From NCBI GenBank assembly GCA_001793095.1, contig MGHG01000009.1, positions 90,391 through 154,390 of the forward strand: a DNA stretch of 64,000 nt, read 5' to 3'. The translations under genes were made by a program, and so were the position numbers. The notes beneath the pieces were generated by a model. It was not told the origin of the DNA. It saw only the letters and a list, made by a program, of their open reading frames with translations, and did not search any database. Below are positions 1,875 to 61,685 of the stretch, in pieces (the stretch's first letter is position 1; the number at the start of each line of letters is the position of its first letter). Origin of the DNA: Candidatus Woesebacteria bacterium RIFCSPLOWO2_01_FULL_39_23 (GTDB lineage Bacteria > Patescibacteriota > Microgenomatia > UBA8517).

Positions 1875-2948
1875 GTGGTAAAACTTGAAGATTATTCACT
1901 TACCCACATTATACGTATGACAGATGATGTTGGTATCTTTGAACATTGCATTTTTGCAACCCCCGATAGATTAGAAGGTTACTGTACTGACGACAACGCA
2001 CGAGCTTTACAACTTGCACTTCGTGTGAAAAAAGAATCATTAGTAAACACGTATCTCAGATTTATAGTCTCAGCACGGACCCCTAAAGGTTTCCATCAGG
2101 ATTTAAAATCAGACTTTACATGGAGAGATGATGATGGGGTAAACGAAGGTTTTGGGCGAGCAATGGCAGCTTTAGGAGAAGCATCGATTAGTGCTCCGAC
2201 GGATGATCAAAAATTAACCGCGGTTTTTATTTTCGACAAACAAGCAATTTTAATAAAAGATGCAAGAGAACCTAGAACTATCGCTCAAGTAATAACCGGA
2301 ATTTTTCACAGAATGAAATTTGAAGCTGCAAACTCTAATTTAGTACCACTACTTGTCATGCGTAAAAAACTAGAGGGAAATACGTTAGTTGGGTTGTCAG
2401 GAAATTTAGAAATAGAATTGATCCGTCTTGCAGACAGATTAACAAAATTTTACCTTACTAATTCATCTTCTTCTTGGAAATGGTACGAAGATCTAATTAC
2501 TTATGATAATGGCAGACTCCCTTTAGCCTTGTTCTATGCTTACCAAACCACCGGAAATAAAAAATATCTCGAAGTTGCCAAAGAATCCTTAGATTTCCTG
2601 ATAGATAAAACTTACGATAACTCGAAGGACTACTTTTCCTTTCCAGGCTATAGAGGATGGTTTCCTAAAGACGGTGAAAAGGCCCTTTTTGGCCAACAGC
2701 CAATAGAAGCAGGAAGTATTGTTGAAGTTTGTTCTGAGGTTTTTAAGATCACAAAAGAACGTAAATATTTAGATTTTGCAAAAATCGCGTTATCCTGGTA
2801 CTCGGGCAAGAATATTTTAGGGATCTCGCTGATTGACAAAATAACTTGTGGAATATATGACGGTTTGGAACCCTGGGGTTTTAATCCTAACCAGGGTGCT
2901 GAGTCTACAATTTCCTACCTCTTGGCCCGCTCTTCTTTCGAGAGTTAA
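1875..2948 (+). CDS. Hypothetical protein, possibly glycosidase-like (alpha/alpha-toroid); function uncertain
   Basis: 357 aa ORF with a GTG start, co-directional and tightly linked to the two GT genes. No firm motif was recognised. Confidence 0.3.
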   Translation: MVKLEDYSLTHIIRMTDDVGIFEHCIFATPDRLEGYCTDDNARALQLALRVKKESLVNTYLRFIVSARTPKGFHQDLKSDFTWRDDDGVNEGFGRAMAALGEASISAPTDDQKLTAVFIFDKQAILIKDAREPRTIAQVITGIFHRMKFEAANSNLVPLLVMRKKLEGNTLVGLSGNLEIELIRLADRLTKFYLTNSSSSWKWYEDLITYDNGRLPLALFYAYQTTGNKKYLEVAKESLDFLIDKTYDNSKDYFSFPGYRGWFPKDGEKALFGQQPIEAGSIVEVCSEVFKITKERKYLDFAKIALSWYSGKNILGISLIDKITCGIYDGLEPWGFNPNQGAESTISYLLARSSFES

Positions 2949-3043
2949 AACTAGTATTTATTTTAAGCATTCGAGAATACCAGAGGCGTTAGCCTCAGTA
3001 TGAATCGAACGCGCAAAAACAAACTTGTTGAGCCTGAAAGGCG

Positions 3044-3075
3044 AAACTACTCATGTTTTTAGGCATGAGTAGTTT
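3044..3075 (+). terminator. Perfect 12-bp stem hairpin (AAACTACTCATG/CATGAGTAGTTT) downstream of the GT cluster; possible terminator
   Basis: Inverted repeat seen directly in the sequence. It is followed by TATATG rather than a clean U-run. Confidence 0.25.
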
Positions 3076-3498
3076 ATATGTTGACAAAAATCGCCTCTTG
3101 ATTCGGGTTTACTTCGGGATAATAATAGAGTGGAAGAGCGAGAGAGCAGGAGAGTTTAAGTTTTTAAATACCGATACTCTTACACTCTTTTACTCTTCTA
3201 CTCTAATGTCATGATTGAGAAAATCTCGACGCCAGTGTCCGTATCGATGACTTTTGACAGCACTAGTCGACGTGTCCAGCCTAAAATTGTGATTTGGCAT
3301 GGCCGCCTCTACCCTATCGTTAAGACTGGACTTCACCACACTTACAGGCAGGGGCGAACTCTTTTCCATGTTTTCTCCGTTGCCAGCAAGACGTTATTTT
3401 TTAGATTGGTTCTAGATACCGAAACCCTGTATTGGAGGTTGGAAGAGATTTCCGATGGAATGACAAATTAGCGCTTAAACTTATTATAATAAAAAAGT

Positions 3499-4946: not shown

Positions 4947-6305
4947 ATGGAAAATATTCTTAATTTTAATCCCAGGCCATCTACAATCCTACATATTGAT
5001 CTTAATTCCTGCTTTGCGACTATCGAACAGCAGGCAAACCCACATCTCCGGGGGAAACCCGTTGCTGTTGCGGCTTACACGAGCTCTAATGGCTGTATCC
5101 TTGCTCCCTCTATTGAGGCTAAGAAATATGGTGTAAAAACCGGAATGAGAGTAAAGGACGGGATGCTTTTGTGTCCTAATTTAATAATTTTACCTTCCGA
5201 TCCCTGGAAATACCGCAACGTCCATCTTAGCCTAAGGCAATTGCTTTCAAACTACACACCTGACGTTATGCCTAAGAGCATAGATGAGTTTGTATTAGAC
5301 TTTCAGAGAGTTGGAGGGATCAGAGGATCGGAAAACTCGGAGTATTCAGATGGTCAGATAGCCAGAGAGTCAGAATTCCGGAAATCTGGTGATCCGATGC
5401 TCGGGTCCCCTGAGTTTTCTGAGGGCTCCGGTTCTCCGTTATGTCGAGTTGCTCAAGAGATCAAGCAGCGTATCAAGCAAGAGGTTGGAGAGTGGCTGAC
5501 TGTTTCGATTGGAATTGCCCCGAATAGGTTTTTGGCAAAACTTGCGTCGGGTTTGCATAAACCGGACGGCCTCGATGAAATTAATAAAGGTAATTTCTTG
5601 GGAGTTTATTCTCAACTTGAACTTACTGATTTGCCTTATATTAAAATGCGTAACGCCATTAGGCTTAATCGTATGGAAATTTTTAGTGTTGTCGATTTTT
5701 ATCATGCACCGCTTTGGAAATTGAAAGCAGCTTTTGAGTCAGTTAATGGTTATTATTGGTATTTGAGGTTAAGGGGGCAGGAAATAGATGATGTCGCTTT
5801 CGGAAGACGAAGCTACGGCAATTCGTATGCGCTCCCCCGCCCTCTAGCCACACCGGAAGACTTGTCGCCTATTTTGACTAAGTTGGTAACTAAGACAGGT
5901 GCCCGTCTTAGGCATGCGGGGTATGCTGCCCGCGGAGTGCACGTTGCCGTAGGCTATAGGGACGGTAGTTTTTGGCATAAGGGTGTGACTTTCAGTAAAA
6001 ACTTATTTGAGTCACGAGAGATTTATAAGTGTTCACTTAGAATTCTTTGTCAGTCTCCGTATCGTAGGCCGGTCAGAGATTTGGCTATTTCGGTCTTCGA
6101 TTTGCGAAGAAAGGAGAGCCTTCAGCTTGAACTTTTTGAGGATGCTGTTGCTAAGGAGAATTTAGCTAAAGCGGTTGATCGGGTGAACGAGCGTTGGGGT
6201 GATTTTGTGGTTACACCGGCGCGCATGGTTAGTGCTTCGAGCGAAGTTCCAGACAGAATCGCGTTCGGCGGGATTAAGGAGCTAGAAGAATTTGCACTAA
6301 GCTAA
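4947..6305 (+). CDS. dinB: DNA polymerase IV (Y-family translesion polymerase) with a ~45 aa lineage-specific insertion
   Basis: Matches ILHIDLNSCFATIEQ..GKPVAV, SIDEFVLDF and SIGIAPNRFLAKLAS. 452 aa against the usual ~360; the extra segment is GIRGSENSEYSDGQIARESEFRKSGDPMLGSPEFSEGSGSP. Confidence 0.8.
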   Translation: MENILNFNPRPSTILHIDLNSCFATIEQQANPHLRGKPVAVAAYTSSNGCILAPSIEAKKYGVKTGMRVKDGMLLCPNLIILPSDPWKYRNVHLSLRQLLSNYTPDVMPKSIDEFVLDFQRVGGIRGSENSEYSDGQIARESEFRKSGDPMLGSPEFSEGSGSPLCRVAQEIKQRIKQEVGEWLTVSIGIAPNRFLAKLASGLHKPDGLDEINKGNFLGVYSQLELTDLPYIKMRNAIRLNRMEIFSVVDFYHAPLWKLKAAFESVNGYYWYLRLRGQEIDDVAFGRRSYGNSYALPRPLATPEDLSPILTKLVTKTGARLRHAGYAARGVHVAVGYRDGSFWHKGVTFSKNLFESREIYKCSLRILCQSPYRRPVRDLAISVFDLRRKESLQLELFEDAVAKENLAKAVDRVNERWGDFVVTPARMVSASSEVPDRIAFGGIKELEEFALS

Positions 6306-6328: not shown

Positions 6329-6925
6329 TTAAAGCTGTGACAAATCAACGCTGTCTCCTAGCTTTACTCCGTATTTATCGGAAAAGCCTGTATTGACTTC
6401 AAGAACATATCTAATAGGTTGCGTAGAAGAATATGTGGGTAGTTTTGAATTTGGAGTATCCAAAGATGGTTTGGGTACATTTTTATCAATATCAGCTATG
6501 ATTCCTTTGTTATCGATCCAAATCATGTCGAGCGGAAAAAGCATTTCTTTCATCCAGAAATGAGGTATGGAGTCTGAAGCGAAAATGAAAATCATTCCTT
6601 CTTCGTCGCTGATCGGTGCATGTCCCGAAAGACCCAATGTTTGTAATGCTGGAGTATCTGCCACTTCAACGGTAAGAGTTTTATCCGCAATTTTGATCTC
6701 CTTTTTCTTAGCTTTTTCTACAACGGTTTTTGTGTCTTCGGATGATATATCTTTACCCGCCTGCAACGCTTGAGGCGTCCCGCTCGCATCGCTACGCGAA
6801 ACGTTTCGGGTGAGAGCATCTGCGGGCAGGTATGTAACATTGGGGTTGCGAAATGCGAATTTATAGAAAACAGCAATCACGATAACGAGAGCTGCAATTG
6901 CTATCGAGATTTTATGTTTAGTCAT
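6329..6925 (-). CDS. DUF192 (COG1430) family protein with N-terminal TM; carries a 33-aa in-frame inserted element
   Basis: The C-terminal HFWMKEMLFPLDMIWID..G..RYVLEV pattern is typical of DUF192. It has an N-terminal hydrophobic helix. Confidence 0.5.
   Translation of the reverse strand: MTKHKISIAIAALVIVIAVFYKFAFRNPNVTYLPADALTRNVSRSDASGTPQALQAGKDISSEDTKTVVEKAKKKEIKIADKTLTVEVADTPALQTLGLSGHAPISDEEGMIFIFASDSIPHFWMKEMLFPLDMIWIDNKGIIADIDKNVPKPSLDTPNSKLPTYSSTQPIRYVLEVNTGFSDKYGVKLGDSVDLSQL
6742..6841. mobile_element. In-frame palindromic inserted element, copy 1 (~100 bp, 33 codons) inside the DUF192 gene
   Basis: About 94% identical to 28041-28140, which lies inside an unrelated gene. It contains nested inverted repeats (CGCCTGCAACGCTTGAGGCG and the perfect palindrome CGAAACGTTTCG). 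Confidence 0.6.
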
Positions 6926-8225: not shown

Positions 8226-8753
8226 TTATAAATCGAATTCGAGCGGTGTCGAATCAATTTTGCTCATGAAAAATTCGACTTTTCCACCCCAAGTTGAACT
8301 TGGAGGAGCATAGCGGCGTGCAATGCTTTTAATTGTTACTGCTCCCTTATCCTTATATTTAAGTCTTAAGGTTTTGGTAACATGTTCAATTGAATCCTCC
8401 CACGAACTAAAACGGTATTCTCCGTTCGCCCAACCATATGCATTAAATGAATTTTTGGGTATTCTTTTACCGAACGTAGATTCTACACCACTTATTGCCG
8501 GAATCAGCCTCCAGTCAATATTATAAACGTCAGCCCAATAAACAAAGTACTTTGCATAAGGAGTAAGGGGTGAATTATATTTTTTAAAGAATATTTTCAG
8601 TTTAAGTGTTCTATAATCCATCTCATAGTTACCAATATTGGTTATAGTATAGGAATCAGAATAATTAGGTACGCTAACAGCTGCCCTTGCGTTGGGTGTA
8701 AGTGTTGCATATAGAATAAACATCACAATTGAAAATACTTTTACATTTCTCAT
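8226..8753 (-). CDS. Membrane-anchored lysozyme-like / lytic-transglycosylase-like protein
   Basis: It has an N-terminal TM and the motif ISGVESTFG...YGW. The ORF-track start at 8798 is probably an N-terminal over-extension; the Met at 8753 is preferred. Confidence 0.4.
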   Translation of the reverse strand: MRNVKVFSIVMFILYATLTPNARAAVSVPNYSDSYTITNIGNYEMDYRTLKLKIFFKKYNSPLTPYAKYFVYWADVYNIDWRLIPAISGVESTFGKRIPKNSFNAYGWANGEYRFSSWEDSIEHVTKTLRLKYKDKGAVTIKSIARRYAPPSSTWGGKVEFFMSKIDSTPLEFDL

Positions 8754-8899
8754 ATAATCTTTCCAAAAAGAAGGGAGGTACCGTCTGGTACCTCCCATAA
8801 AAAATTCTGACGCTTTTCAAGACTATAAGTCTGAATTGCCTCAGAACATGATGCTAATATAGCATAATACTACAGGATTGTCAAGCTTGTGGGGGTTGA

Positions 8900-9688
8900 T
8901 TACGTCTTTTTTGCAAGTATGAAAATAGAAGGACCGAAATTGATTCTGGAGAATGGTTTCTGAAGCTGATTTTCCAAGAAAAGAAGAGTTTCTATAGTTA
9001 AAAGTTTTTTTATGAAGTTACTTCTTATATTAGAAACAGATCTTTGTTCTATTATTGTAAAGCCGCTATCTCTAAGCTTTTGTCTTATAATATCCGGGTG
9101 ATAGTTAAAAAACGGTAAAGTTTTTTCTTTTTTTGATTTACTACTTCGAACATCTTTAGGGTAGATATCCAGAAAAAAAGTTAAATTGCCTCTTAATAAT
9201 TCTGTAATAGCCGCCTTGAGGTGAATTTTATTTGGAAACTCAATGATTAAATAGCCATTTGGTTTTAATAGGTTGTGTATTATTCTTATTGATTTATCCA
9301 GATCTTTAATATGATGGAGAACTCTGACAATCAGGATTAAGTCGACTGAATTTTTTCTTATTTTTGACGGTAGTTTTTCTATCGGTGAGCGTATGAATTT
9401 TACGTTTTTTCTGTTAAATTCTTTTTTCGCTATCGCTAATAGTTTGGCCGATGGGTCTGTCAAAATGATATTCTTACCTCGAAAAATATATGTCGGTGTA
9501 AGGCGGCCAAAGCCGACCCCAATATCGAGTATTTTACCTATCTTTTTGATTTTAGAGAGAAAGCCGGAAATTGCGATTACTTCAGCCTTATGTTCGTATT
9601 CGCGTCCAACCCAATAATTCGGATAATCAAATGTGTCGTATGCTGCAGACATATATATTACACCACAAATTATACTTGGAATATGCAA
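8900..9688 (-). CDS. Class I SAM-dependent methyltransferase
   Basis: It has a glycine-rich SAM motif (ILDIGVGFGRL) and LKPNGYLIIEFPN. Confidence 0.65.
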   Translation of the reverse strand: MHIPSIICGVIYMSAAYDTFDYPNYWVGREYEHKAEVIAISGFLSKIKKIGKILDIGVGFGRLTPTYIFRGKNIILTDPSAKLLAIAKKEFNRKNVKFIRSPIEKLPSKIRKNSVDLILIVRVLHHIKDLDKSIRIIHNLLKPNGYLIIEFPNKIHLKAAITELLRGNLTFFLDIYPKDVRSSKSKKEKTLPFFNYHPDIIRQKLRDSGFTIIEQRSVSNIRSNFIKKLLTIETLLFLENQLQKPFSRINFGPSIFILAKKT

Positions 9689-14882: not shown

Positions 14883-15770
14883 TTATGATTTGTTAATTAT
14901 CTGACTTGGCGTAATTACAGTGATATTGTTTTCTTGAACATACTTAATAATGTCCTCAAAGTCATCTTTATTAATGTCGTAACGTTCACTGTTGACATCT
15001 TTAATTGGTTCGCCGACCTTATGGAATAAAAGGATCAACCATGCTTTATCCTTTTTAGTTTGGTCGATCCATAACTTTATATCATCAACCTTTGTATTAT
15101 TTTCGATATTTTTAACCTTCATGTTATAGGGATCTAGTGTATCTACAGGATTAAAACCGGGATCGACAGTACGATATCCTTGAAACAGTTTACTGGCTTC
15201 ACTGCGGAGCGTCGGACTGTCTACCCCACACGGTGTAACAAAGACAGTGGCGGATAATTTTTGACTCCAAAGTATATTCCTGGCGGTAGTTAAATCTGTT
15301 TTTATTTGATCTTCGCTTAATGACTGCATGTTGCAATCATGTTTCAAACTATGATTTGCTATTTCCCAGCCGTCGTCTTGGATAATTCTTAACTGTGCCC
15401 AATTCATGTAATCTTTTTGGCCGATTGCAACAACCGGGACTGCAATGGTTCCCTTTAACCCCGCTTCTTTCATTAATGGATAGGCAACCATGTATTGTGA
15501 CAGCCACGCATCGTCAAACCAAAAGGTTATGTAACCATCGGTATTATTTGGTAACGCGGCATAATCTTTAAAAAAAGGATTAGCAGGATTTGTCGTACTG
15601 TAATTTTGCACACTCCTCCAAATAGGAGTATCGGATACTGAACCGAAAACATAACCAATGACAAGCCAAAGGATTATTAATGGTACTACTAACCAAAACA
15701 GGAAAGAATGTTGGCCGTCTTTCGGGCTACCGATTTTTTGAACTAAATTATTTATTTTCTTGTTTTTCAT
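14883..15770 (-). CDS. Polysaccharide deacetylase (CE4, NodB homology) with N-terminal TM
   Basis: FWFDDAW...NHSLKHD motifs. The ORF-track start at 15869 reads into the intergenic repeat element; the Met at 15770 (MKNKKINN) is preferred. Confidence 0.65.
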   Translation of the reverse strand: MKNKKINNLVQKIGSPKDGQHSFLFWLVVPLIILWLVIGYVFGSVSDTPIWRSVQNYSTTNPANPFFKDYAALPNNTDGYITFWFDDAWLSQYMVAYPLMKEAGLKGTIAVPVVAIGQKDYMNWAQLRIIQDDGWEIANHSLKHDCNMQSLSEDQIKTDLTTARNILWSQKLSATVFVTPCGVDSPTLRSEASKLFQGYRTVDPGFNPVDTLDPYNMKVKNIENNTKVDDIKLWIDQTKKDKAWLILLFHKVGEPIKDVNSERYDINKDDFEDIIKYVQENNITVITPSQIINKS

Positions 15771-15960
15771 GACATCCTCCCTGCTCTTACAAGCAGGGTT
15801 TCCTTCTCTAAAGAAGGATGATACTTCGACAAGCTCAGTATCATGCTGAGTATCGTCGAAGCATGACATATCAGGCTCGATTCTCTACGAGTCAGAGACT
15901 CTTAGAGTCGGCGACATCCCCGAGCTAACGCTCGGAGTTTTCTCGAGATCTGCTATAAAC
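15771..15960 (+). repeat. Modular structured intergenic element, copy A (full length, ~190 nt)
   Basis: It shares a 5' hairpin module, a 45-nt palindromic module, a GCTCGATTC linker and a 3' GC-hairpin + TTTTCT + GCTGTTATAA tail with copies at 17504, 38557 (minus) and 61594. The stems co-vary between copies. Confidence 0.65.
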
Positions 15961-17418: not shown

Positions 17419-17503
17419 TATAGGTCATGTATTATACATTATTAGGGATAATTATAAACATAATATGGGATATTAATTAAATATGTACTAACTTAAATGT
17501 TAT

Positions 17504-17661
17504 GACATCCTCCCCGCCTTGAAAGGCGGGGTTTCCTTCAAAGGAGGATGATACTTCGACAGGCTCAGTATCATGCTGAGTATTATCGAAGCATGACATA
17601 TCAGCGTTCAATTCATCCCCGGGCTGAAAGCCCGGAGTTTTCTTGAATGCTGTTATAAGCC
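17504..17661 (+). repeat. Modular structured intergenic element, copy B
   Basis: Same module order as copy A, with compensatory stem changes (CCCCGCC-TTGAAA-GGCGGGG against CCCTGCT-CTTACA-AGCAGGG). Confidence 0.65.
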
Positions 17662-17716
17662 TTGCTTCACTTTATTATACAATTTAATGAAGCAGTAATT
17701 TTTCGTACAATATTAT

Positions 17717-24803: not shown

Positions 24804-24885
24804 GCGGGGAAGAGGACTTGAACCTCCACGGATTACTCCACAGCCTCCTCAAGACTGCGCGTCTGCCAATTTCGCCATCCCCGCG
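24804..24885 (-). tRNA. tRNA-Leu (anticodon GAG), type II
   Basis: Cloverleaf built by hand: GCGGGGA acceptor, TTGAGGA anticodon loop, long variable arm. Confidence 0.8.
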
Positions 24886-25095
24886 CGTCGTAACACGACA
24901 CGCTAAATTTCATTCTGCTTTTGCAGAACTCCATCCGCTTATCTGTTGCTCCCTTTCAATACTTTGACTTCACTCACGATTGTCTTTATATTCTAACAAA
25001 ATTTGTTTATACAAATTTTGAGAGGAGAAGCAAACGTAAGCTAAAGTTTTGAGCAAAAGCTCAAAACAAAAGCTGCAAGTTTAGATTCGACTTGG

Positions 25096-27750: not shown

Positions 27751-28941
27751 TTAAATAAATCTAACCTGCATGCCGTCAAGAGCCTGTAAGGATAGGGAGA
27801 CTTCTTGGCCGGGGAATTTTGAACCGATAGCCCAGATTTTTGCGTGCGTTCTTTCTTCTGCGAAATCAGGCCCAATTTTTTGTGCAACTTCGAATAAACT
27901 TGCCCCTTTTTTCATAACGATAGGGCTATTAAAATTCGGCTCTTCATCGAGGCGAACAAGATAAACATTGATAAAACCAAGAGTTTCCCAAATCCTTTCT
28001 TTTAAATGGTCTAGTCCGTAATCTTTTACTGCACTTATGTATGATATATCATTACCCGCCTGCAACGCTTGATGCGTCCCGCTCGCATCGCTACGCGAAA
28101 CGTCTCGGGCGAGAGCATCCGCGGGTAGGTATGTAACATTATCATTCGGCTGCATAATAATTTCTTTGTTTAACATGTCCGATTTATTTATAACAGAAAT
28201 TGAGGGGGTGTAAACGCGATTTAGTGATAATGCATCGATTAATCTTTCCAAACTTAAGTTTTCATTGATTGTTATTTCCGCGTTTTTTATTCCAAGTTCA
28301 CTAATAACACTTTTAAAAGTTTCTCTCGTGAGGTCTTGTTTAATATTGGAGTGAATGATAAGTCCTCCAGAAACTTTTTTGTCCACTATTATATTTGGTC
28401 GCACAATATCAAGTCTAATTCCGTTTCTTTCGAGTGCAGCCTTAATTCTTTCAATAGCCTCAGGTCTGTCGATGTCCGTCATTAGAATTATCAGGTCAGC
28501 CCCTCGAGCTACCGACAAAACTTCACGTCCTCTTCCCTTCCCTTCTTCTGCACCCTCAATTAGACCAGGAACATCCAAGATTTGGATTCTGGCATTTTTA
28601 TACTCCATCATGCCCGGAATAACTGATACGGTTGTAAAAGAATAGGGAGCCACTCTGCTTCTTGCGTTTGTAAGTCTATTCAGAAGAGTTGATTTTCCGG
28701 CTGACGGTGGACCTATTAATATTACAGTTGCATCTCCCTGGTGCTTTACTGCATAGCCTTGACCTCCTCCACCTCTTGATTTTGAGGATGTTTCTATTTG
28801 TTTATCTTTCAGCCTTGCAATTCTAGCCCTGAGCCTTCCGATATGGTGCTCGGTACCTTTATGGTAAGGTGTGTCGCGTATTTCTTTTTGAATGGCTGAA
28901 ATTTGTTCACCTATATGATCAATATCGGAAAAATCACTCAT
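27751..28941 (-). CDS. DRG/Obg-family GTPase with C-terminal TGS domain; carries a 33-aa in-frame inserted element
   Basis: G1 GPPSAGKSTLLN, DVPGLIEGA and a C-terminal TGS-like ...QVRFI. The N-terminal helix region resembles eukaryotic/archaeal DRG. The ORF-track start at 28998 overlaps tRNA-Arg(TCG); the Met at 28941 is preferred. Confidence 0.65.
   Translation of the reverse strand: MSDFSDIDHIGEQISAIQKEIRDTPYHKGTEHHIGRLRARIARLKDKQIETSSKSRGGGGQGYAVKHQGDATVILIGPPSAGKSTLLNRLTNARSRVAPYSFTTVSVIPGMMEYKNARIQILDVPGLIEGAEEGKGRGREVLSVARGADLIILMTDIDRPEAIERIKAALERNGIRLDIVRPNIIVDKKVSGGLIIHSNIKQDLTRETFKSVISELGIKNAEITINENLSLERLIDALSLNRVYTPSISVINKSDMLNKEIIMQPNDNVTYLPADALARDVSRSDASGTHQALQAGNDISYISAVKDYGLDHLKERIWETLGFINVYLVRLDEEPNFNSPIVMKKGASLFEVAQKIGPDFAEERTHAKIWAIGSKFPGQEVSLSLQALDGMQVRFI
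28041..28140. mobile_element. In-frame palindromic inserted element, copy 2 (~100 bp, 33 codons) inside the DRG GTPase gene
   Basis: About 94% identical to 6742-6841. It encodes DNVTYLPADALARDVSRSDASGTHQALQAGNDIS between conserved GTPase and TGS segments. Confidence 0.6.
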
Positions 28942-28983
28942 TTGAGGTATAATTATACAGGTTTTGAGCTTTGCCTGTATTAA

Positions 28984-29059
28984 GCGCCTGTAGTTCAATG
29001 GATAGAACGGCGGTCTTCGGAACCGACAATTGGAGGTTCGACTCCTCCCAGGCGCACCA
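28984..29059 (+). tRNA. tRNA-Arg (anticodon TCG) with encoded 3' CCA
   Basis: Cloverleaf built by hand: GCGCCTG acceptor, CTTCGGA anticodon loop, GGAGG-TTCGACT-CCTCC T-arm, A73 + CCA. Confidence 0.7.
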
Positions 29060-33402: not shown

Positions 33403-33446
33403 TTTGTTTCGACACGCTCCCGCGAATGTTGAGCTTGTCGAAACAG

Positions 33447-33517
33447 AGCGGGTAGGGGGAATCGAACCCCCATAAAGAGATTGGAAATCTCTTGTTCTAC
33501 CATTGAACCATACCCGC
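33447..33517 (-). tRNA. tRNA-Gly (anticodon TCC)
   Basis: Cloverleaf built by hand: GCGGGTA acceptor, AGAGA/TCTCT anticodon stem, TTTCCAA loop, U73. Confidence 0.75.
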
Positions 33518-33538
33518 ATATGTTACATATTTTCAATG

Positions 33539-33670
33539 GCCAAGCTCCGCTTACAGCGCGTAGCGATGCCAAGCTTTGCTTACAGCGCGTAGCGATGCCA
33601 AGCTTTGCTTACAGCGCGTAGCGATGCCAAGCTTTGCTTACAGCGCGTAGCGATGCCAAGCTCCGCTTAC
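33539..33670. repeat. Tandem minisatellite, 29-bp unit x ~4.5 (GCCAAGCTYYGCTTACAGCGCGTAGCGAT)
   Basis: Directly adjacent repeats with no spacers. It sits between tRNA-Gly(TCC) and a duplicated 20-nt copy of the tRNA 5' end (33668-33687). Confidence 0.8.
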
Positions 33671-33816
33671 CATTGAACCATACCCGCGCGTCGTAACACG
33701 ACGCACTAATCGTATCACAATGCCTTTGCGTAGGATACTAACGCTAGTCGGTTACTCCTTTCAATCCTTCTGCTTTGCTCAGGATTGGTTTCTAACAATC
33801 AAATAATATGTTTTTG

Positions 33817-33894: not shown

Positions 33895-33980
33895 TGTCGG
33901 GAGGGAGACTCGAACTCCCACGAGACTAATGTCTCATCAGCTCTTAAGGCTGAGGCGTCTGCCAATTCCGCCATCCCGAC
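33895..33980 (-). tRNA. tRNA-Leu (anticodon TAA), type II
   Basis: Cloverleaf built by hand: GTCGGGA acceptor, CTTAAGA anticodon loop, hairpin variable arm. Confidence 0.8.
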
Positions 33981-34040
33981 TCGTCGAAAGGAACAAAGAT
34001 AGTATATTTTACTATTGAGACGTGTAAAGAGGCAAATATA

Positions 34041-38381: not shown

Positions 38382-38556
38382 AATGCTATATTGCTACACC
38401 TATAGAAGAAGTTCAAGTAGTTTAATTATTGACTCGGTAGGTTAAGTAAACGGTGATGAAAAGGTGCATTATTAAAAAAATTAGAGCGGGAGATCTTCTG
38501 ACAAGCTCCTTCTTTACTACTCTTTTATCAAAATAATCCATTAACTTTAGTGCTGA

Positions 38557-38667
38557 GGTTATAACAGCGTTCAAGAAAACTCCGCTCTTCAGGGCGGAGA
38601 TGAATTGAACTCTGATATATCGTCCTCCTTAGAGAAACCCCGCCCTTGAGGGCGGGGAGGACGTCAT
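38557..38667 (-). repeat. Modular structured intergenic element, copy D (minus orientation, lacks the central palindromic module)
   Basis: The reverse complement reads GACGTCCTCCCCGCCCTCAAGGGCGGGGTTTCTCTAAGGAGGACG ATATATCAG AGTTCAATTCATCTCCGCCCTGAAGAGCGGAGTTTCTTGAACGCTGTTATAACC. This aligns module-by-module with copy B. Confidence 0.6.
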
Positions 38668-38993
38668 TTAGAATCCTGCCAGAGACAATACATCGCAACA
38701 ACCCATATTCTCTCCTCAGGATGGCTCCAAGAACCATTTCCTCCTTCTACAAAATATTTATAAGTGCCGCCTTCTTTATCTCTTTTAATTTTCATCAATC
38801 GGCCTCCCCGATCAATTCCTTGAACCGTCTCTGCTCCCCTTACAAAACGCCTTCTTAAGGCCTGTGACGCACGCTCATAGGCGTTCATATCGTCCATTAG
38901 CCTCTTTGCGGTTTTATCTAAACTATCAGCGCTGGTGATGTCTAGTGAGTTTAAATAATTCGAGGTTTTAGGAAATGTTTTATGTAAATCCAT
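38664..38993 (-). CDS. Hypothetical protein
   Basis: 109 aa ORF. Confidence 0.3.
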   Translation of the reverse strand: MDLHKTFPKTSNYLNSLDITSADSLDKTAKRLMDDMNAYERASQALRRRFVRGAETVQGIDRGGRLMKIKRDKEGGTYKYFVEGGNGSWSHPEERIWVVAMYCLWQDSK

Positions 38994-39008: not shown

Positions 39009-40328
39009 TCACTTTCTTTCAAGATTATACCAGTTTGGATGATATAAAAAGATTGCCGGTGCATCTTCCAAGAGGTATTTTTGAAAGTCCAAATATATTC
39101 GTTTTCTTTCTTCGAAATTTTCTTGTGTACGGCCATCTTCCAGAAGTTTGTCAATTCGTGGATTTTTATATTTTGTAATGTTCGTATCGATTTGTGTTGA
39201 ATGCCAAAGAGTGTATTGATCTGGGTCGGTTGGTATATCGAAAATAGTAAGATAAGCCTGATAGTCGGTGGGAATAACCGAACTGACTAAGGCTTGGCCG
39301 TCAACCCCGACATCCTTCCAGTCTTTAACAATTTTTTCTGCGATGCCGATTAACGATGGAGTGCTCACGAGCTTAACATTTAGTTTGCTTCTTACTTCTT
39401 TTGGGAGAGCGGTGATGATTTCTCTTGAACGAGCTGGGTCATAGTCGTAGAGTTTCACCTGGGGATTGAAAGCAAACGAATTTGGGTCAATAGGACTTAT
39501 TGCACGCTCAGATGAAAGAATGTCTTTATTGATAGCGTAACTTAAAGCTTGTCTTATGTTTTTTTCCGAAAGTACTGGGTCTTGAGTATTGAAAAATATT
39601 ACTACGGCTTCATGTTTATTTACGATATTTGTGACTTTAGAGTTAATCCATTTGTCAAAAGGTTGCGGATTTAAAACGTTAACCATTTTGTTTATCTCAC
39701 CCATTTTATATGCGAACTTAACTTGATCTTCGGATGGATAGAATTTATATATAATTTTGGATTTACCTTTTATTAATATAATTTTTTGTATATATTCCCC
39801 CGTAACCGTAATTTTATCTACTTTCCACGATCCCGTACCCAATAAACCCTTTTTAAAAACAGGACGCGAAACGACTGATGGAAATGCAATGTAGGGCTCT
39901 TTCAAGTTAAAAATTATAGTGTCCGAGGAGGGATATGTAACATTGACTTCAGAAAAATTATATTTAATGTCTTGACTTTGTAAGGGTTTGCCATCGTGCC
40001 AATAGACGCTTTCATTTAATTTAAATTTCCATGTTTTACCCTTATCATCAGTTCCCCACGATATCGCAAGTCCCGGCTGAGGAATGCCTTTATCATCTAT
40101 TTTAGTTAACCCCAATCCTATCGTGTTTAAGATGTCATCTGGAAGCGTATTTACATGAAATCTGCCTGTAATACCGATAACCTCGGTTTTTGTACTTATT
40201 ACAAGTGGGGAAATAAAGATATATAAAAATAGAATGATAATTCCAGCGAAGGAGCTTAACAAAATTATACCCTTATACCTACTTAAAAACGCCAATAATA
40301 ATCTTAAATAGTAACGAAGTATATGCAT
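39009..40328 (-). CDS. ABC-transporter solute-binding protein, family 5 (peptide/nickel type), short form
   Basis: N-terminal TM/signal, then ...ISWGTDDKGKTWKFKLNESVYWHDGKPL... typical of SBP_bac_5. Confidence 0.5.
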   Translation of the reverse strand: MHILRYYLRLLLAFLSRYKGIILLSSFAGIIILFLYIFISPLVISTKTEVIGITGRFHVNTLPDDILNTIGLGLTKIDDKGIPQPGLAISWGTDDKGKTWKFKLNESVYWHDGKPLQSQDIKYNFSEVNVTYPSSDTIIFNLKEPYIAFPSVVSRPVFKKGLLGTGSWKVDKITVTGEYIQKIILIKGKSKIIYKFYPSEDQVKFAYKMGEINKMVNVLNPQPFDKWINSKVTNIVNKHEAVVIFFNTQDPVLSEKNIRQALSYAINKDILSSERAISPIDPNSFAFNPQVKLYDYDPARSREIITALPKEVRSKLNVKLVSTPSLIGIAEKIVKDWKDVGVDGQALVSSVIPTDYQAYLTIFDIPTDPDQYTLWHSTQIDTNITKYKNPRIDKLLEDGRTQENFEERKRIYLDFQKYLLEDAPAIFLYHPNWYNLERK

Positions 40329-49306: not shown

Positions 49307-49417
49307 ATTATTATCCCGAAACTATACCGAAAATTATACCATATGGTTGTTATCTACTTTCTTTGAGCGGTTGCAAACATATTTATCATGGGTATAACAT
49401 GTAAACGAAAGAAAAAC

Positions 49418-50680
49418 ATGGACAGCAAAATTAGATCTATTAAAGCGAGAGAAATATTAAGCTCAAACGGTTTACCGACACTTGAAACAACTGTCTTGTG
49501 CGCTAATGGTACAAATTCTTCTGTTTCTATTCCCTATGGAGAATCTGCCGGTAAATACGAGGCTGTGACGATTTTTGATGAAGATAAGTCAAGATATGAA
49601 GGCTACGGCATGCTTAAGGCAGTCAAAATTGTAGACGAAATTATATCCCCTCAACTTGCGGGAGTTGATGTAACCGATCAAAAACAGATTGATCAGAAAC
49701 TTTTTGATTTAGACCCAACACCACAAAAAACTAATTTGGGCGGTAATAGTCTGTTGAGTGTTTCTCTTGCGTGTGCTAAAACTGCCAGCGTTATCGAAAA
49801 GCTGCCTCTTTATATTTATATTCAAAAAACTTACGGATTCGATGGTGGTATTACTAACATGCCTAAACCAAACATGGTCGTGTTAGAAGGAGGAAAACAT
49901 GCTGATAATTCAACAGATTTTCAGGAATATTCTGTTTCAGTAATCGGAAAATTTAACTGTTCTGATTCTGTGAGAGCCGGTATAGAAATATACAGATCTT
50001 TAGGGCGTGAGCTAAAGCTTAACGGTTTCAATATTAATGTCGGAGCAGAGGGTGCGTATGCGGCGGTCTCAATGAAATCGAACATTGACCCTTTGCTATA
50101 TATAAAAAATGCAATAGAAAAAACTAAATATATTCCCGAAAAAGACGTAGGAATTTCACTCGATCCTGCCGCTTCTGAATTTTACGAATCGGGTTTTTAT
50201 AATTTGTCTAAAGATCAGAAAAAATTTAATTCATCGGAGATGATTACTTATTACGAAAATCTTTTAGATAATTATCCGATAATTTCGATAGAAGACGGAT
50301 TGGCAGAGGAGGATTGGGACAACTGGAAGCCTTTATTTACGAAACTCAGTGAAAAAATAATGATCGTAGGTGATGATCTAACGGTAACCCAGGAAAAAAG
50401 ATTAAAAAGAGCGATCGACGAAAAGACGATAAATTCAATAATAATTAAGCCTAATCAGGCGGGAACCTTAACTGAGACTATGGCGACAGTCATGTTGGCT
50501 AAAGATAATAATATTAAAACAATAGTTTCGCACCGCGGAGGTGGCGAAACGACTGATACTTTTATTATAGATTTAGCTGTAGCAATAGGAGCGGAATATG
50601 TTAAGGTCGGTCCAACCAGGGGCGAACGAACGCAAAAATATAATCGATTGATGGAAATAGCCGCCGAATTAAATCTGTAA
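49418..50680 (+). CDS. eno: Enolase (paralog 1, more divergent)
   Basis: IKAREILSSNGLPTLE..., KPNQAGTLTET, SHRGGGETTD. The start is moved to the Met at 49418 (MDSKIRSIKAREIL). Confidence 0.75.
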   Translation: MDSKIRSIKAREILSSNGLPTLETTVLCANGTNSSVSIPYGESAGKYEAVTIFDEDKSRYEGYGMLKAVKIVDEIISPQLAGVDVTDQKQIDQKLFDLDPTPQKTNLGGNSLLSVSLACAKTASVIEKLPLYIYIQKTYGFDGGITNMPKPNMVVLEGGKHADNSTDFQEYSVSVIGKFNCSDSVRAGIEIYRSLGRELKLNGFNINVGAEGAYAAVSMKSNIDPLLYIKNAIEKTKYIPEKDVGISLDPAASEFYESGFYNLSKDQKKFNSSEMITYYENLLDNYPIISIEDGLAEEDWDNWKPLFTKLSEKIMIVGDDLTVTQEKRLKRAIDEKTINSIIIKPNQAGTLTETMATVMLAKDNNIKTIVSHRGGGETTDTFIIDLAVAIGAEYVKVGPTRGERTQKYNRLMEIAAELNL

Positions 50681-52079: not shown

Positions 52080-53351
52080 TTACATCCGACCGCTTAGAAG
52101 TTCAACTTCGATTGCAGATAAGCGATTATATTTAGCGACCCTTTCTCCCCGCGACGGAGCACCAAATTTGACAAAATCCGCTCCAATACCTACAGCGAAA
52201 TCTGCTATAAACCATTCGTTAGTTTCTCCGGAACGATGAGAGACAATTATTTTCCACGAAGACGCAAGTGCTTTTGAGATAACCCTTAACGTTTCCGTAA
52301 TTGTTCCTAATTGATTTGGTTTGACAAGTATTGCATTACAGGCTTTCTCTTTAATCGCTTTGACTACTCTTTCCGGATTTGTCGCGAGCAGGTCATCACC
52401 GACAACGGTTAGTTGCTCAGACATCTCAGTATAAAGCTTTTTCCAGCTATTCCAGGCATCTTCCTGAAAAGCGTCTTCGAGTATTGCTAGATGATACTGA
52501 TTATTTAAGGTTTTATAGTATTCAAGCAAATCATCATCAGTCAAAGGAGACGATTTATCCCTTATTGAGTAATTACCATTTTTATAGAAGACAGATGCGG
52601 CAGCATCAAGACCGAGAAAGACATCGCGACCCAATTGATATGGGGTTTCTTTAATTGATTCAACGAGTATTTCGAAAGCGTCAGCATTAGTAAAAAGATT
52701 GGGGGCATATCCGCCCTCGTCACCAACAGAATGAATTGCTCCCCGTCTCTTAAGGTTGTCGCCGATAGTCATGTAAGTTTCGACGCCCATTCTGAGTCCT
52801 TCGCTGAATTTTTTGGAGGTTGCTGGTATTACATGGAATTCCTGAAAATCCAGATTACCAGCACCATGTAATCCGCCATTTATCATGTTAAAAATAGGAG
52901 TTGGTATGTGTTCTTTTGCTTTGATACCGAATTTAGCAGCCATTTGGTTAATGTAGGAGTATAAGGTTTTACCAGCAGAAAGTGATCCAGCCTTTGCGGT
53001 AGCTATCGAGACTGCGAGGATTGCGTTAGCACCGTATTTTGATTTATTTTTTGTTCCGTCGGTATCGATGAGTTTTTTGTCTATTACTTCCTGGTCGATT
53101 GGATCCATGCCTATAAGCACCTGACCTAAGATATTATTTACATTGTTAACCGCTTTTAATACACCCTTACCGTGATATCTTGAAGTGTCCTGATCTCTAA
53201 GCTCAAGAGAATCGTATTTTCCGGTCGGTGTAGCTGACGGTACTGAGGCAATAGCCACTTGTCCGGTATCTAAAAGACAAGACGCTTCAACAGTAGGAAT
53301 GGCTCGCGAATCCAAAATTTCTCTTGCCCATATTTTTGATATTTTTGACAT
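52080..53351 (-). CDS. eno: Enolase (paralog 2, canonical)
   Basis: SKIWAREILDSR, KPNQLGTITET, SHRSGETNEWFIADFAVG. 423 aa. Confidence 0.85.
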   Translation of the reverse strand: MSKISKIWAREILDSRAIPTVEASCLLDTGQVAIASVPSATPTGKYDSLELRDQDTSRYHGKGVLKAVNNVNNILGQVLIGMDPIDQEVIDKKLIDTDGTKNKSKYGANAILAVSIATAKAGSLSAGKTLYSYINQMAAKFGIKAKEHIPTPIFNMINGGLHGAGNLDFQEFHVIPATSKKFSEGLRMGVETYMTIGDNLKRRGAIHSVGDEGGYAPNLFTNADAFEILVESIKETPYQLGRDVFLGLDAAASVFYKNGNYSIRDKSSPLTDDDLLEYYKTLNNQYHLAILEDAFQEDAWNSWKKLYTEMSEQLTVVGDDLLATNPERVVKAIKEKACNAILVKPNQLGTITETLRVISKALASSWKIIVSHRSGETNEWFIADFAVGIGADFVKFGAPSRGERVAKYNRLSAIEVELLSGRM

Positions 53352-59507: not shown

Positions 59508-59762
59508 TTATGAAACTTTGTAAACCTCAGCCCCCTCTTTTAATTCATTACTAACTTTTAGACCGACTATATCTCCTTTACTTGCCGATTGAATATTATT
59601 GTGTTCAACCTGCATTGAATCGACGTTTTCTTCAAACAGATCTTCTCCACCTCTAACAAATTTAACTTTGTCACCGACAGCTAAATTACCATCCAACTCA
59701 ACTATCGCAACTTTGATTTTATCGTAATAATGAGTAACTACACCGACTTTAAAATCTGCCAT
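59508..59762 (-). CDS. Small beta-barrel protein, EF-Tu-domain-2-like (hypothetical)
   Basis: 84 aa with a G..V..G.I..G..V...GD pattern and a strong GGAGGTGA RBS. Confidence 0.3.
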   Translation of the reverse strand: MADFKVGVVTHYYDKIKVAIVELDGNLAVGDKVKFVRGGEDLFEENVDSMQVEHNNIQSASKGDIVGLKVSNELKEGAEVYKVS

Positions 59763-59835
59763 TTATATCACCTCCCCCTGTGAGATAGTCACGTACGTGA
59801 CATCTCACGGGGTCCCGTTAGATGTCGCAGACTAT

Positions 59836-60339
59836 CTAACTGGGACCTTTCCTACTCTGAAATACATGTGTCAGGGCTACCGCCAATGCATCGGCAGCAT
59901 TATCAAAATGGGTTTTCTTGTGTGCTTTACTTTTAATATTATTACCTAATATTTTTCTTATAGATCTTTGAACATCTTTCTTATTGGCTCGACCACTACC
60001 GGTTATCATCTTTTTAATTGTTCCGGGTGCGTATTCAACTACTTCTACTTTTGTCTTTGAAGCTGCCAATAAAAGTACACCTTGTGCCTGGCCAACTGCA
60101 ATGGCTGTTTTTGCGTTTGTAGCAAAGAAGATTTTCTCAAACGCAAAGACATGTGGATTATAACTTTTTATAATAGCTAATATTTCTTTATAAATTATTT
60201 CCAGTCGGTTTTCTTTGAAGCCGTTTTTATCAGTTTCTATTAACCCCCAATTAATTACTTTAAAGTCGCCTTTGCCGTTCGTTTCAATTACTCCGTATCC
60301 TGTAGTAGCAGTACCGGGGTCGATACCTAAAATTATCAT
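59836..60339 (-). CDS. ruvC: Holliday junction resolvase RuvC
   Basis: MIILGIDPGTATTGYGVIE... catalytic-Asp N-terminus. 167 aa. Confidence 0.85.
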   Translation of the reverse strand: MIILGIDPGTATTGYGVIETNGKGDFKVINWGLIETDKNGFKENRLEIIYKEILAIIKSYNPHVFAFEKIFFATNAKTAIAVGQAQGVLLLAASKTKVEVVEYAPGTIKKMITGSGRANKKDVQRSIRKILGNNIKSKAHKKTHFDNAADALAVALTHVFQSRKGPS

Positions 60340-61593: not shown

Positions 61594-61685
61594 GACATAC
61601 TCGCCTCGCCGTGGCTTGAGCGAAGCGGGTCAGGGCTCGATTCATCCCCGAGCGTAAGCTCGGGGTTTTCTCGAAACTGCTATAC
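61594..61685 (+). repeat. Modular structured intergenic element, copy C (short form)
   Basis: Shares TATGACAT 5' context, a 5' hairpin (CGCCTCGCC...GCGAAGCGG), the GCTCGATTCATCC linker and the CCCGAGC-GTAA-GCTCGGG TTTTCTCGAAA CTGCTATAC tail. It ends 8 nt before the ATG of the next gene. Confidence 0.6.

What the first reader, a model, noticed from the sequence alone, without database searches (positions are those of the whole stretch)
28041..28140. Second copy of the in-frame palindromic element, in the DRG-family GTPase
This is a separate record for the copy inside the GTPase. It sits between the GTPase domain and the C-terminal TGS domain, so the host protein is probably still functional with an extra loop. 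The 3' end of both copies is GGTATGTAACATT. The unrelated minisatellite insertion at 33518 begins with the reverse complement (ATATGTTACATAT), hinting at a shared terminal or target motif. The two could have come from a single duplication, so the mobility of this sequence family still needs support from further copies.
Basis: seen in the sequence. Interest (0 to 1): 0.6.

Follow-up and report, generated by a model that had tools for sequence, protein, structure and literature searches.

The report
In-frame palindromic repeat in Woesebacteria genes
A 100-base GC-rich hairpin-forming repeat sits in frame inside two unrelated genes of an uncultivated Woesebacteria (CPR) bacterium, adding a floppy 33-residue loop to each protein; it resembles the "selfish" palindromic elements of Rickettsia, but only two or three copies could be found.

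Summary
Window 28041-28140 is a 100-nt copy, 94% identical, of 6742-6841, with no similarity in the flanks. Both copies lie in the same orientation and reading frame. One is inside a DRG/Rbg-type GTPase and the other inside a DUF192 protein, and each adds the peptide NVTYLPADAL.R.VSRSDASGT.QALQAG.DIS.

The repeat is about 55% GC in a 36.6% GC genome and is an imperfect palindrome (19-nt terminal inverted repeat, -38 kcal/mol, z about -2.5 to -3). In the GTPase it lies between the G4 (NKSD) and G5 (ISA) motifs, not strictly between domains. That spacer is 47 aa here against 12-24 aa in most of 115 orthologues. AlphaFold models the insert as a disordered loop on an otherwise confident fold.

A short metagenome contig (L008) carries a third sequence variant joined to an unrelated flank. 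One draft assembly breaks 2 nt past the element.

No copy was found in GTDB representative genomes, JGI metagenome contigs, viral contigs, phages or plasmids. The window holds no transposase and the copies have no target-site duplication.

The best reading is a low-copy, lineage-restricted, RPE/MITE-like in-frame palindromic element. Mobility remains only weakly supported. The TATGTAACAT "terminal/target motif" idea is weak.

The parts
28041..28140 (-). Element copy 2 (the finding). It is a 100-nt GC-rich imperfect palindrome, read on the minus strand as 33 in-frame codons (28140 down to 28042). The peptide is NVTYLPADALARDVSRSDASGTHQALQAGNDIS.
6742..6841 (-). Element copy 1, 94% identical to copy 2, in the same orientation and frame. 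It lies in the linker between the N-terminal membrane anchor and the DUF192 domain. The peptide is NVTYLPADALTRNVSRSDASGTPQALQAGKDIS.
28041..28059 (.). Left arm of the terminal inverted repeat (ATGATATATCATTACCCGC).
   Evidence: 19 nt, 74% complementary to 28121-28139
28121..28139 (.). Right arm of the terminal inverted repeat (GCGGGTAGGTATGTAACAT). It contains the ATGTAACAT motif.
27751..28941 (-). Host gene 1, a DRG/Rbg-type GTPase of 396 aa (the ORF is open back to 28998). G4 (NKSD) is at 28188-28177 and G5 (ISA) at 28038-28030. The insert lies between them.
6329..6925 (-). Host gene 2, a DUF192 protein of 198 aa. The Pfam domain covers residues 85-194 and the insert covers residues 29-61.
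33518..33697 (.). Possibly related locus. It comprises the ATATGTTACATAT palindrome, then the 29-nt VNTR (33539-33683), then a 20-nt duplicate of the tRNA-Gly 5' end. It shares only a 13-mer and a 10-mer with the element, so the relationship is unproven.

Best explanation
The sequence is a copy of a small non-autonomous palindromic repeat, about 99-100 nt with imperfect terminal inverted repeats and about 55% GC in a 36.6% GC genome. The genome is that of a Candidatus Woesebacteria (CPR) bacterium.

Shown: the same 100 nt has been copied into at least two unrelated genes. In both it lies in one of the only two reading frames that have no stop codon. The ORFs therefore stay intact and gain a 33-residue hydrophilic peptide. 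In the GTPase, the peptide is modelled as a disordered loop in a spacer that varies in length among orthologues.

Inferred: the copies arose by insertion of a mobile or selfish element, in the way of Rickettsia palindromic elements and intragenic MITEs. Copies that landed in other frames, orientations or structurally important positions would have been removed by selection. The surviving copies now drift neutrally at the peptide level.

Unknown: the copying mechanism. It could be a transposase acting in trans, hairpin-mediated single-strand transposition, or recombination.
For: Two copies are 94% identical with unrelated flanks, in two unrelated genes 21 kb apart.

Hairpin and composition:
- The plus-strand fold gives z -2.5 to -3.1.
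- Among 16 GC-rich coding segments of the window, only the two copies and one dinB insert are significantly palindromic.

Reading frames and substitutions:
- Four of the six frames contain stops, and both copies use the same open frame.
- The 6 differences between the copies are 2 synonymous and 4 non-synonymous, so there is no sign of peptide-level purifying selection.

Empty sites and tolerance:
- In the 15-sequence alignment, the 14 full-length orthologues lack the insert.
- The G4-G5 spacer is 47 aa here against 12-24 aa in most of 115 orthologues; the next longest is 38 aa.
- The insert has pLDDT below 50 in a model with mean pLDDT 84.8.

Signs of further copies:
- Draft contig MGGU01000026.1 ends 2 nt past the element, as expected where an assembler meets a repeat.
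- Contig L008 joins an unrelated 121-nt flank to an element variant that differs from copy 2 at 3 sites and from copy 1 at 5 of 90 sites, again in the same frame.

The phenomenon is not isolated:
- dinB next door carries an unrelated 126-nt in-frame palindrome. It adds 45 aa that are absent from the DNA polymerase IV structure 7yll, with fold z -3.7.
- Three other Woesebacteria orthologues carry a different palindromic insert in the same GTPase loop, z -3.6 to -4.9.

In-frame insertion of palindromic repeats is established for RPEs and some MITEs (PMC10969869).
Against: - Only two copies were found in 64 kb plus about 12 kb of flanking sequence.
- Nothing was found in GTDB representative genomes, JGI metagenome contigs, IMG/VR, phages or plasmids.
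- A HMMER scan of 1.84 billion representative proteins found only the GTPase cluster itself.
- There is no target-site duplication and no common target sequence at the two sites.
- No transposase, RAYT, reverse transcriptase or integrase lies in the window.
- All sampled strains carry both inserts, so no presence/absence polymorphism was seen.
- After adjusting for GC content, hairpin stability is not an outlier among 110-nt windows of the window.
- L008 is a single 895-nt contig from one sample and could be a chimera.
Confidence: 0.55

Rival explanations
1. A one-off ectopic duplication or gene conversion. A 99-nt segment native to one gene (or to a third locus) was copied once into the other by illegitimate recombination. 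It is not a mobile element, and the palindromic shape is incidental or merely made the recombination easier.
For: Only two copies lie in the window, and none was found in any outside collection. There is no target-site duplication and no transposase. Both loci are fixed in all sampled strains.
Against: - The segment is foreign to both hosts in composition, about 55% GC against 36.6%.
- It is absent from GTPase orthologues.
- In the DUF192 protein it lies outside the conserved domain.
- A third sequence variant with a third flank exists.
- Other unrelated in-frame palindromes occur in dinB and in orthologous GTPases, which points to a recurring process.
Confidence: 0.27
2. A selected functional module. 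Either the 33-aa peptide is a useful linear motif or linker, or the hairpin acts at the RNA level (for example on mRNA stability, on ribosome pausing, or as an antisense transcript). Under this view the copies are kept by selection, not tolerated as selfish DNA.
For: - Both copies are in the same frame and orientation.
- All variable sites fall in unpaired or G-U-compatible positions of the plus-strand hairpin (my reading of the structures).
- The inserts are invariant across 49-68 collection blocks.
Against: - Four of the 6 substitutions change the amino acid.
- The peptide is modelled as disordered.
- There is no Rfam match even at E up to 10.
- No related peptide was found in 1.84 billion representative proteins.
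- The same frame is expected half the time by chance, because only two frames are open.
Confidence: 0.1
3. Variable repeats of a diversity-generating retroelement. The two copies would be VR/TR-type repeats that differ through adenine-directed mutagenesis.
For: All 7 variable sites among copy 1, copy 2 and L008 involve an adenine on the coding strand (my count). DGRs are common in CPR (my own knowledge).
Against: - No reverse transcriptase lies in the window.
- The adenine is sometimes in one copy and sometimes in the other.
- The repeats are internal loops of housekeeping proteins, not C-terminal lectin-fold variable regions.
- Each copy is invariant across many samples, the opposite of hypervariability.
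Confidence: 0.03

Closest known systems
Rickettsia palindromic elements (RPEs; Ogata et al. 2000, as summarised in PMC10969869)
   Same: Both are palindromic repeats of about 100-150 bp inserted in frame in unrelated housekeeping genes. Each family encodes a conserved peptide in one frame. Insert positions are compatible with the protein fold. Both occur in a small, AT-rich, reduced genome, and no associated transposase is evident.
   Different: The host is a different phylum (CPR/Woesebacteria, not Alphaproteobacteria), and no sequence relationship was shown. Copy number here is 2-3 against dozens for RPEs. This element is clearly richer in GC than its genome. Spread across related species was not seen.
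Intragenic MITEs of bacteria (ERIC, BOX, QMITE1, Anabaena MITEs; review PMC10969869)
   Same: Both are short non-autonomous repeats with terminal inverted repeats and hairpin potential, and both can form in-frame fusions with host ORFs.
   Different: This element has no target-site duplication and no parent IS with matching ends, and its copy number is very low.
GC clusters of yeast mitochondrial DNA (recalled from my own knowledge, not checked here)
   Same: Both are GC-rich palindromic mobile clusters in a very AT-rich genome. Some yeast clusters are inserted in frame in a protein gene (VAR1).
   Different: The yeast clusters are organellar, shorter (about 30-50 bp) and highly repeated.
IS200/IS605-derived palindrome-associated elements (PATEs) and REP/RAYT systems
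   Same: Both are hairpin-based and lack a target-site duplication. A TTAC-like tetranucleotide lies at one end (AATGTTAC|AT on the coding strand).
   Different: No TnpA or RAYT lies in the window. REPs are 20-40 nt and extragenic. This element has end-to-end inverted-repeat symmetry, not two distinct subterminal hairpins.

Membership tests
Rickettsia palindromic elements (RPE-like in-frame palindromic repeats) | Palindromic repeat of about 100-150 bp able to form a long hairpin | tested here: met
   The repeat is 100 nt with 19-nt inverted termini. The fold is -38 kcal/mol, z -2.5 to -3.1.
Rickettsia palindromic elements (RPE-like in-frame palindromic repeats) | Inserted in frame in unrelated protein-coding genes, giving a conserved peptide | tested here: met
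   Both copies are in the same frame, one in the GTPase and one in DUF192. The peptides are 88% identical.
Rickettsia palindromic elements (RPE-like in-frame palindromic repeats) | Many dispersed copies per genome (tens), shared among related species | tested here: inconclusive
   There are 2 copies in about 76 kb examined, plus one further variant (L008). None was found in other genomes or metagenomes. The rest of the genome could not be read.
Rickettsia palindromic elements (RPE-like in-frame palindromic repeats) | Insert lies at a position compatible with the protein fold (surface loop) | tested here: met
   AlphaFold gives the insert pLDDT below 50 with no secondary structure, while the rest of the protein is confident. 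The loop varies in length among orthologues.
Rickettsia palindromic elements (RPE-like in-frame palindromic repeats) | Sequence homology to RPE families of Rickettsia | not testable with these tools
   No RPE library was available. The host is a CPR bacterium, so descent from the Rickettsia families is unlikely.
Classical MITE | Terminal inverted repeats | tested here: met
   The arms 28041-28059 and 28121-28139 are 74% complementary.
Classical MITE | Target-site duplication flanking each copy | tested here: not met
   The flanks of the two copies show no direct repeat and no common target.
Classical MITE | Parent IS or transposase with matching ends | tested here: inconclusive
   None was found in the window or in about 12 kb of flanking sequence.
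REP/BIME with RAYT | Extragenic palindromes of 20-40 nt with a RAYT gene | tested here: not met
   The repeat is 100 nt and intragenic, and no Y1 transposase lies in the window.
Diversity-generating retroelement VR/TR | Nearby reverse transcriptase, adenine-specific differences between TR and VR, and hypervariability of VR | tested here: not met
   No RT was found. The adenine-involving differences run in both directions. Each copy is invariant across many assemblies.
DRG/Rbg family GTPase (host protein) | Obg-type G domain with MMR_HSR1_Xtn insertion and a C-terminal TGS domain; homology to Rbg1/Rbg2 | tested here: met
   Pfam MMR_HSR1 scores 8e-24 and MMR_HSR1_Xtn 5e-22; TGS is weak at 0.004. 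PDB hits are 7nrc Rbg2 at 1e-61 and 4a9a Rbg1 at 5e-60.

The most novel reading that the evidence does not exclude
Woesebacteria, and perhaps CPR bacteria more widely, may carry several unrelated families of RPE-like palindromic elements. These would insert in frame into permissive loops of conserved proteins, including a translation-associated GTPase, DNA polymerase IV and DUF192. They would be a recurrent source of the lineage-specific loop insertions seen in CPR proteins, and they would move by a mechanism that leaves no target duplication and needs no nearby transposase. The element studied here would be one young, low-copy family of that class.
Probability: 0.35. Interest if true: 0.65.

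Novelty: new member of a known kind. Interest (0 to 1): 0.45.

Why it matters
In-frame selfish palindromes are best documented in Rickettsia. Similar elements in a CPR bacterium would show that the phenomenon recurs independently in small, AT-rich genomes. It would also offer a concrete source for the many unexplained loop insertions in CPR proteins.

There is a practical side too. These 100-nt repeats break short-read assemblies; one MAG contig ends exactly at the element. They can also produce chimeric contigs and truncated gene calls, such as the 301-aa 'partial' GTPase and the 146-aa fragment.

Tried and rejected
- **Short-peptide word searches.** The doubled peptide and the first 60 residues of P0121 both returned 'no candidate shares three words'. 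Proteins containing the exact peptide are in that collection (P0001, P0125, P0129).
- **Exact DNA searches.** A 25-mer against genome contigs and a 22-mer against metagenome contigs found nothing. The JGI contig that does carry the element is evidently not in that metagenome collection.
- **Peptide-pattern scans.** Scans of the genome, viral and metagenome collections found no relative.
- **Other libraries.** Phages and plasmids gave no match. Rfam at E up to 10 gave nothing.
- **HMMER over representative proteins.** The scan of 1.84 billion representatives found only P0121, plus three low-complexity false positives. Clustering at 50% identity can hide inserts, and the DUF192 copy was itself missed.
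- **39934 as a degenerate third copy.** Rejected. It is ordinary SBP_bac_5 coding sequence.
- **Extended homology between the element and the 29-nt minisatellite.** None beyond a 13-mer and a 10-mer.
- **DGR reading.** Rejected: no RT and no hypervariability.
- **Promoter and terminator scans.** Uninformative.
- **GC-adjusted hairpin scan of the whole window.** It does not flag the element as an outlier. The palindrome is therefore significant only against shuffles of itself.

Full report
**What is there.** Window 28041-28140 is one of two copies of a 100-nt sequence. The other copy is at 6742-6841. The two match at 94 of 100 bases without gaps, and similarity stops abruptly at both ends (family D3; blastn E 1.8e-39 and nhmmer E about 1e-35). 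A sensitive nhmmer/blastn scan found no third full copy in the window. None was found in about 12 kb of adjoining sequence fetched from public assemblies either.

The segment is about 55% GC in a window that averages 36.6%. It is an imperfect palindrome. The 19-nt termini ATGATATATCATTACCCGC and GCGGGTAGGTATGTAACAT are 74% complementary. The plus strand of both copies folds into one long hairpin of -38 kcal/mol (z -3.07 and -2.52). The minus strand folds less well (z -1.45 and -2.29).

I tested 16 GC-rich coding segments of the window in the same way. Only the two copies and one segment in dinB are significantly palindromic. On a GC-adjusted scan of all 110-nt windows the element is not an outlier. 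The hairpin is therefore real but not extreme.

**Coding context.** Both copies lie in minus-strand ORFs, in the same orientation and the same frame, as exactly 33 codons plus one shared base.
- Copy 2 (28140 down to 28042) encodes NVTYLPADALARDVSRSDASGTHQALQAGNDIS inside the ORF 27751..28998.
- Copy 1 (6841 down to 6743) encodes NVTYLPADALTRNVSRSDASGTPQALQAGKDIS inside 6329..6925.

Only two of the six frames of the element are free of stop codons, and both copies use the same one. The six nucleotide differences comprise two synonymous and four non-synonymous changes. That does not suggest selection on the peptide, although the number is small.

**The hosts.** The ORF at 27751..28998 is a DRG/Rbg-type GTPase.
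- Pfam gives MMR_HSR1 at 8e-24, MMR_HSR1_Xtn at 5e-22 and a weak TGS hit.
- The best solved relatives are yeast Rbg2 (7nrc) and Rbg1 (4a9a), E 1e-61 and 5e-60.

The insert lies between the G4 motif NKSD and the G5 motif ISA, inside the Pfam MMR_HSR1_Xtn match. It is therefore within the G domain and not strictly between the GTPase and TGS domains.
- In a 15-sequence alignment, the 14 full-length orthologues (60-70% identical) lack the insert.
- Over 115 orthologues the G4-G5 spacer is 12-24 residues in most cases. It is 47 here, the longest of all, and the next longest is 38.
- Removing the 33 residues gives 14, within the normal range.
- An AlphaFold2 model built on 116 sequences has mean pLDDT 84.8 and pTM 0.82. 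Its residues 262-270 and 272-295, which are the insert and the native loop before it, fall below pLDDT 50 and have no secondary structure.

The other host is a DUF192 protein. The insert occupies residues 29-61, between the N-terminal hydrophobic anchor and the domain at residues 85-194. Both positions look permissive.

**Organism and reality of the sequence.** The window matches Candidatus Woesebacteria MAGs from the Rifle aquifer: GCA_001792065.1 contig MGFV01000010.1 (321,868 nt), RBG_16_40_11 and others. It also matches ENA and JGI assemblies. The exact insert-bearing DUF192 and GTPase proteins are listed in 68 and 49 blocks of the collection respectively. Every variant in their 90% clusters keeps the insert. 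The element is therefore not an artefact, and it is fixed in the sampled population.

In the more fragmented sister MAG GCA_001792575.1, contig MGGU01000026.1 ends 2 nt beyond the element. This leaves a 301-aa 'partial' GTPase. That is the behaviour expected of an assembler meeting a repeat.

**Further copies.** I looked for further copies in several ways, and all the outside searches were negative.
- Exact-word DNA scans of GTDB representative genomes and JGI metagenome contigs found nothing.
- Peptide-pattern scans of the genome, viral and metagenome collections found no relative.
- Phage and plasmid collections gave no match.
- Rfam gave nothing for the region.

A full HMMER pass over 1.84 billion representative proteins returned one real hit, P0121 (E 1.2e-14). 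P0121 is a 146-aa fragment on an 895-nt contig, L008. From position 122 onward, L008 matches the GTPase copy and its downstream sequence at 99.6%. Its first 121 nt match nothing in the window or the fetched loci.

The three mismatches all lie in the first 40 nt of the element portion. Two agree with copy 1 and one is unique. The reading frame is again the same (…IKD-LPADAL…). L008 is thus either a recombinant or an assembly chimera between the GTPase copy and a third, distinct copy with its own flank. Either way it indicates at least three copies in the community. It rests, however, on a single short contig from one sample.

Two protein word-index searches with short queries returned nothing, although exact positives exist in the collection. 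I discount those negatives. Most of the roughly 1-Mb genome could not be read with the tools, so the true copy number is unknown.

**The motif idea.** TATGTAACAT occurs 4 times against 0.21 expected. ATGTWACAT, which is its own reverse complement, occurs 4 times against 0.64.
- Two of the four occurrences are the element copies themselves.
- The one at 39934 lies in ordinary coding sequence of an SBP_bac_5 protein and again reads NVTY. It is not at any repeat boundary.
- The one at 33520 lies between tRNA-Gly and the 29-nt minisatellite.

In the element the motif is the outer part of the right inverted-repeat arm, mirrored by ATGATATAT on the left. It therefore reads as part of the element, not as a target. 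L008 lacks it, which could mean truncation or a junction inside the element.

The minisatellite unit also shares the 13-mer GCATCGCTACGCG with the element, in the same relative order and orientation as the 10-mer. A 13-mer match anywhere in the window is unremarkable (7% of shuffles). A match within that particular 183-nt region is rare (3 of 20000 shuffles). No extended alignment exists. I regard a link as possible but unproven.

'Both sites begin ATGATATATC' simply describes the left arm of the repeat. The true flanks share no target sequence and show no duplication.

**Context that supports a class.** Two further observations point to a recurring process.
- The neighbouring dinB gene (4947-6305, plus strand) has a 45-residue segment (residues 123-167) that is absent from the solved DNA polymerase IV 7yll. 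Its DNA (about 5300-5425) is an unrelated imperfect palindrome of -51.7 kcal/mol, z -3.7.
- Three other Woesebacteria GTPase orthologues (P0006, P0016, P0018) carry a different, mutually related palindromic insert in the same G4-G5 loop. It encodes …KVTGAKL.HP..GG…, its DNA begins AAAGTAACGGGTGC…, and the folds give z -3.6 to -4.9.

In-frame palindromic inserts thus recur in this lineage. I found no paper in the held library describing such elements in CPR bacteria. The Rickettsia precedent and in-frame MITEs are reviewed in PMC10969869.

**Mechanism.** The window holds no transposase, RAYT, reverse transcriptase or integrase.

I considered a DGR reading because all seven variable sites involve an adenine on the coding strand. 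I rejected it for three reasons. There is no RT. The adenines are in different copies at different sites. Each copy is invariant across many samples.

My preferred account is a low-copy non-autonomous palindromic element of the RPE/MITE type. Its surviving copies are those that landed in an open frame in permissive loops (confidence about 0.55). The main rival is a single ectopic duplication with no mobility (about 0.27). A selected peptide or RNA hairpin function is less likely (about 0.1).

**Verdict.** This is a new member of a known kind, in-frame palindromic repeats, in a phylum where none appears to have been described. Evidence for mobility is thin. Interest is 0.45.

Noticed in passing
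window 5300-5425 (in dinB, 4947-6305 +): An unrelated in-frame imperfect palindrome of 126 nt (-51.7 kcal/mol, z -3.7). It adds about 45 residues (123-167) that are absent from solved DNA polymerase IV structures. It appears once in the window.
   Followed up: partly
window 33498-33697: A 29-nt minisatellite (33539-33683) lies between tRNA-Gly (33446-33517, minus strand) and a 20-nt duplicate of that tRNA's 5' end (33668-33687). The arrangement resembles att-like direct repeats. The unit number differs between assemblies: 4 fewer in L001 and 2 more in L005.
   Followed up: partly
window 15740-15960 (-), 17470-17665 (-), 38545-38680 (+); related hairpin at 61643-61674: A three-copy structured repeat with two conserved hairpins that show compensatory changes. 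It ends in GGAGGATGTCATG (Shine-Dalgarno plus start codon), so it may be a 5' leader or small RNA. The only Rfam similarity is a sub-threshold one to Parabacteroides-1, 32 bits against a gathering score of 93.
   Followed up: partly
L010 about 2215-2330; L012 and L013 at the same loop: Other Woesebacteria orthologues of the GTPase carry a different, mutually related palindromic in-frame insert in the same G4-G5 loop. It encodes KVTGAKL.HP..GG, has variable length, and folds with z -3.6 to -4.9.
   Followed up: partly
L008 1-121: An 895-nt MEGAHIT contig joins an unrelated AT-rich flank to the element and the GTPase 3' half. The flank has an ATG-initiated ORF, MDYITLQNKDSLELIDEVIKD. The contig is either a recombinant or a chimera at the repeat. 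The source of the flank was not found.
   Followed up: partly
L001 10802-10903 (GCA_001792575.1 MGGU01000026.1): The draft MAG contig ends 2 nt after the element, and NCBI therefore annotates a 301-aa 'partial' GTPase. It is an example of a 100-nt repeat fragmenting a CPR assembly.
   Followed up: yes
window 27751-28941: A DRG/Rbg-type GTPase, a family I recall as archaeal and eukaryotic, is encoded in this bacterium. It has thousands of close homologues among Woesebacteria-like sequences.
   Followed up: no
window 49388-50680 (+) and 52080-53351 (-): Two full-length enolase paralogues lie 1.4 kb apart, flanking lexA and a VTT-domain gene.
   Followed up: no
window 2931-3230, 8691-8900, 59731-59900: Other strong local hairpins, 4-6 sd below the GC-adjusted mean folding energy. 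They are mostly intergenic or at gene ends and were not characterised.
   Followed up: no
window 24859-24893, 33662-33696, 33955-33989: A short conserved sequence (…CCCGCGCGTCGTAA on the plus strand) lies immediately 5' of several minus-strand tRNA genes. It may be a shared tRNA leader or promoter element (family D2).
   Followed up: no
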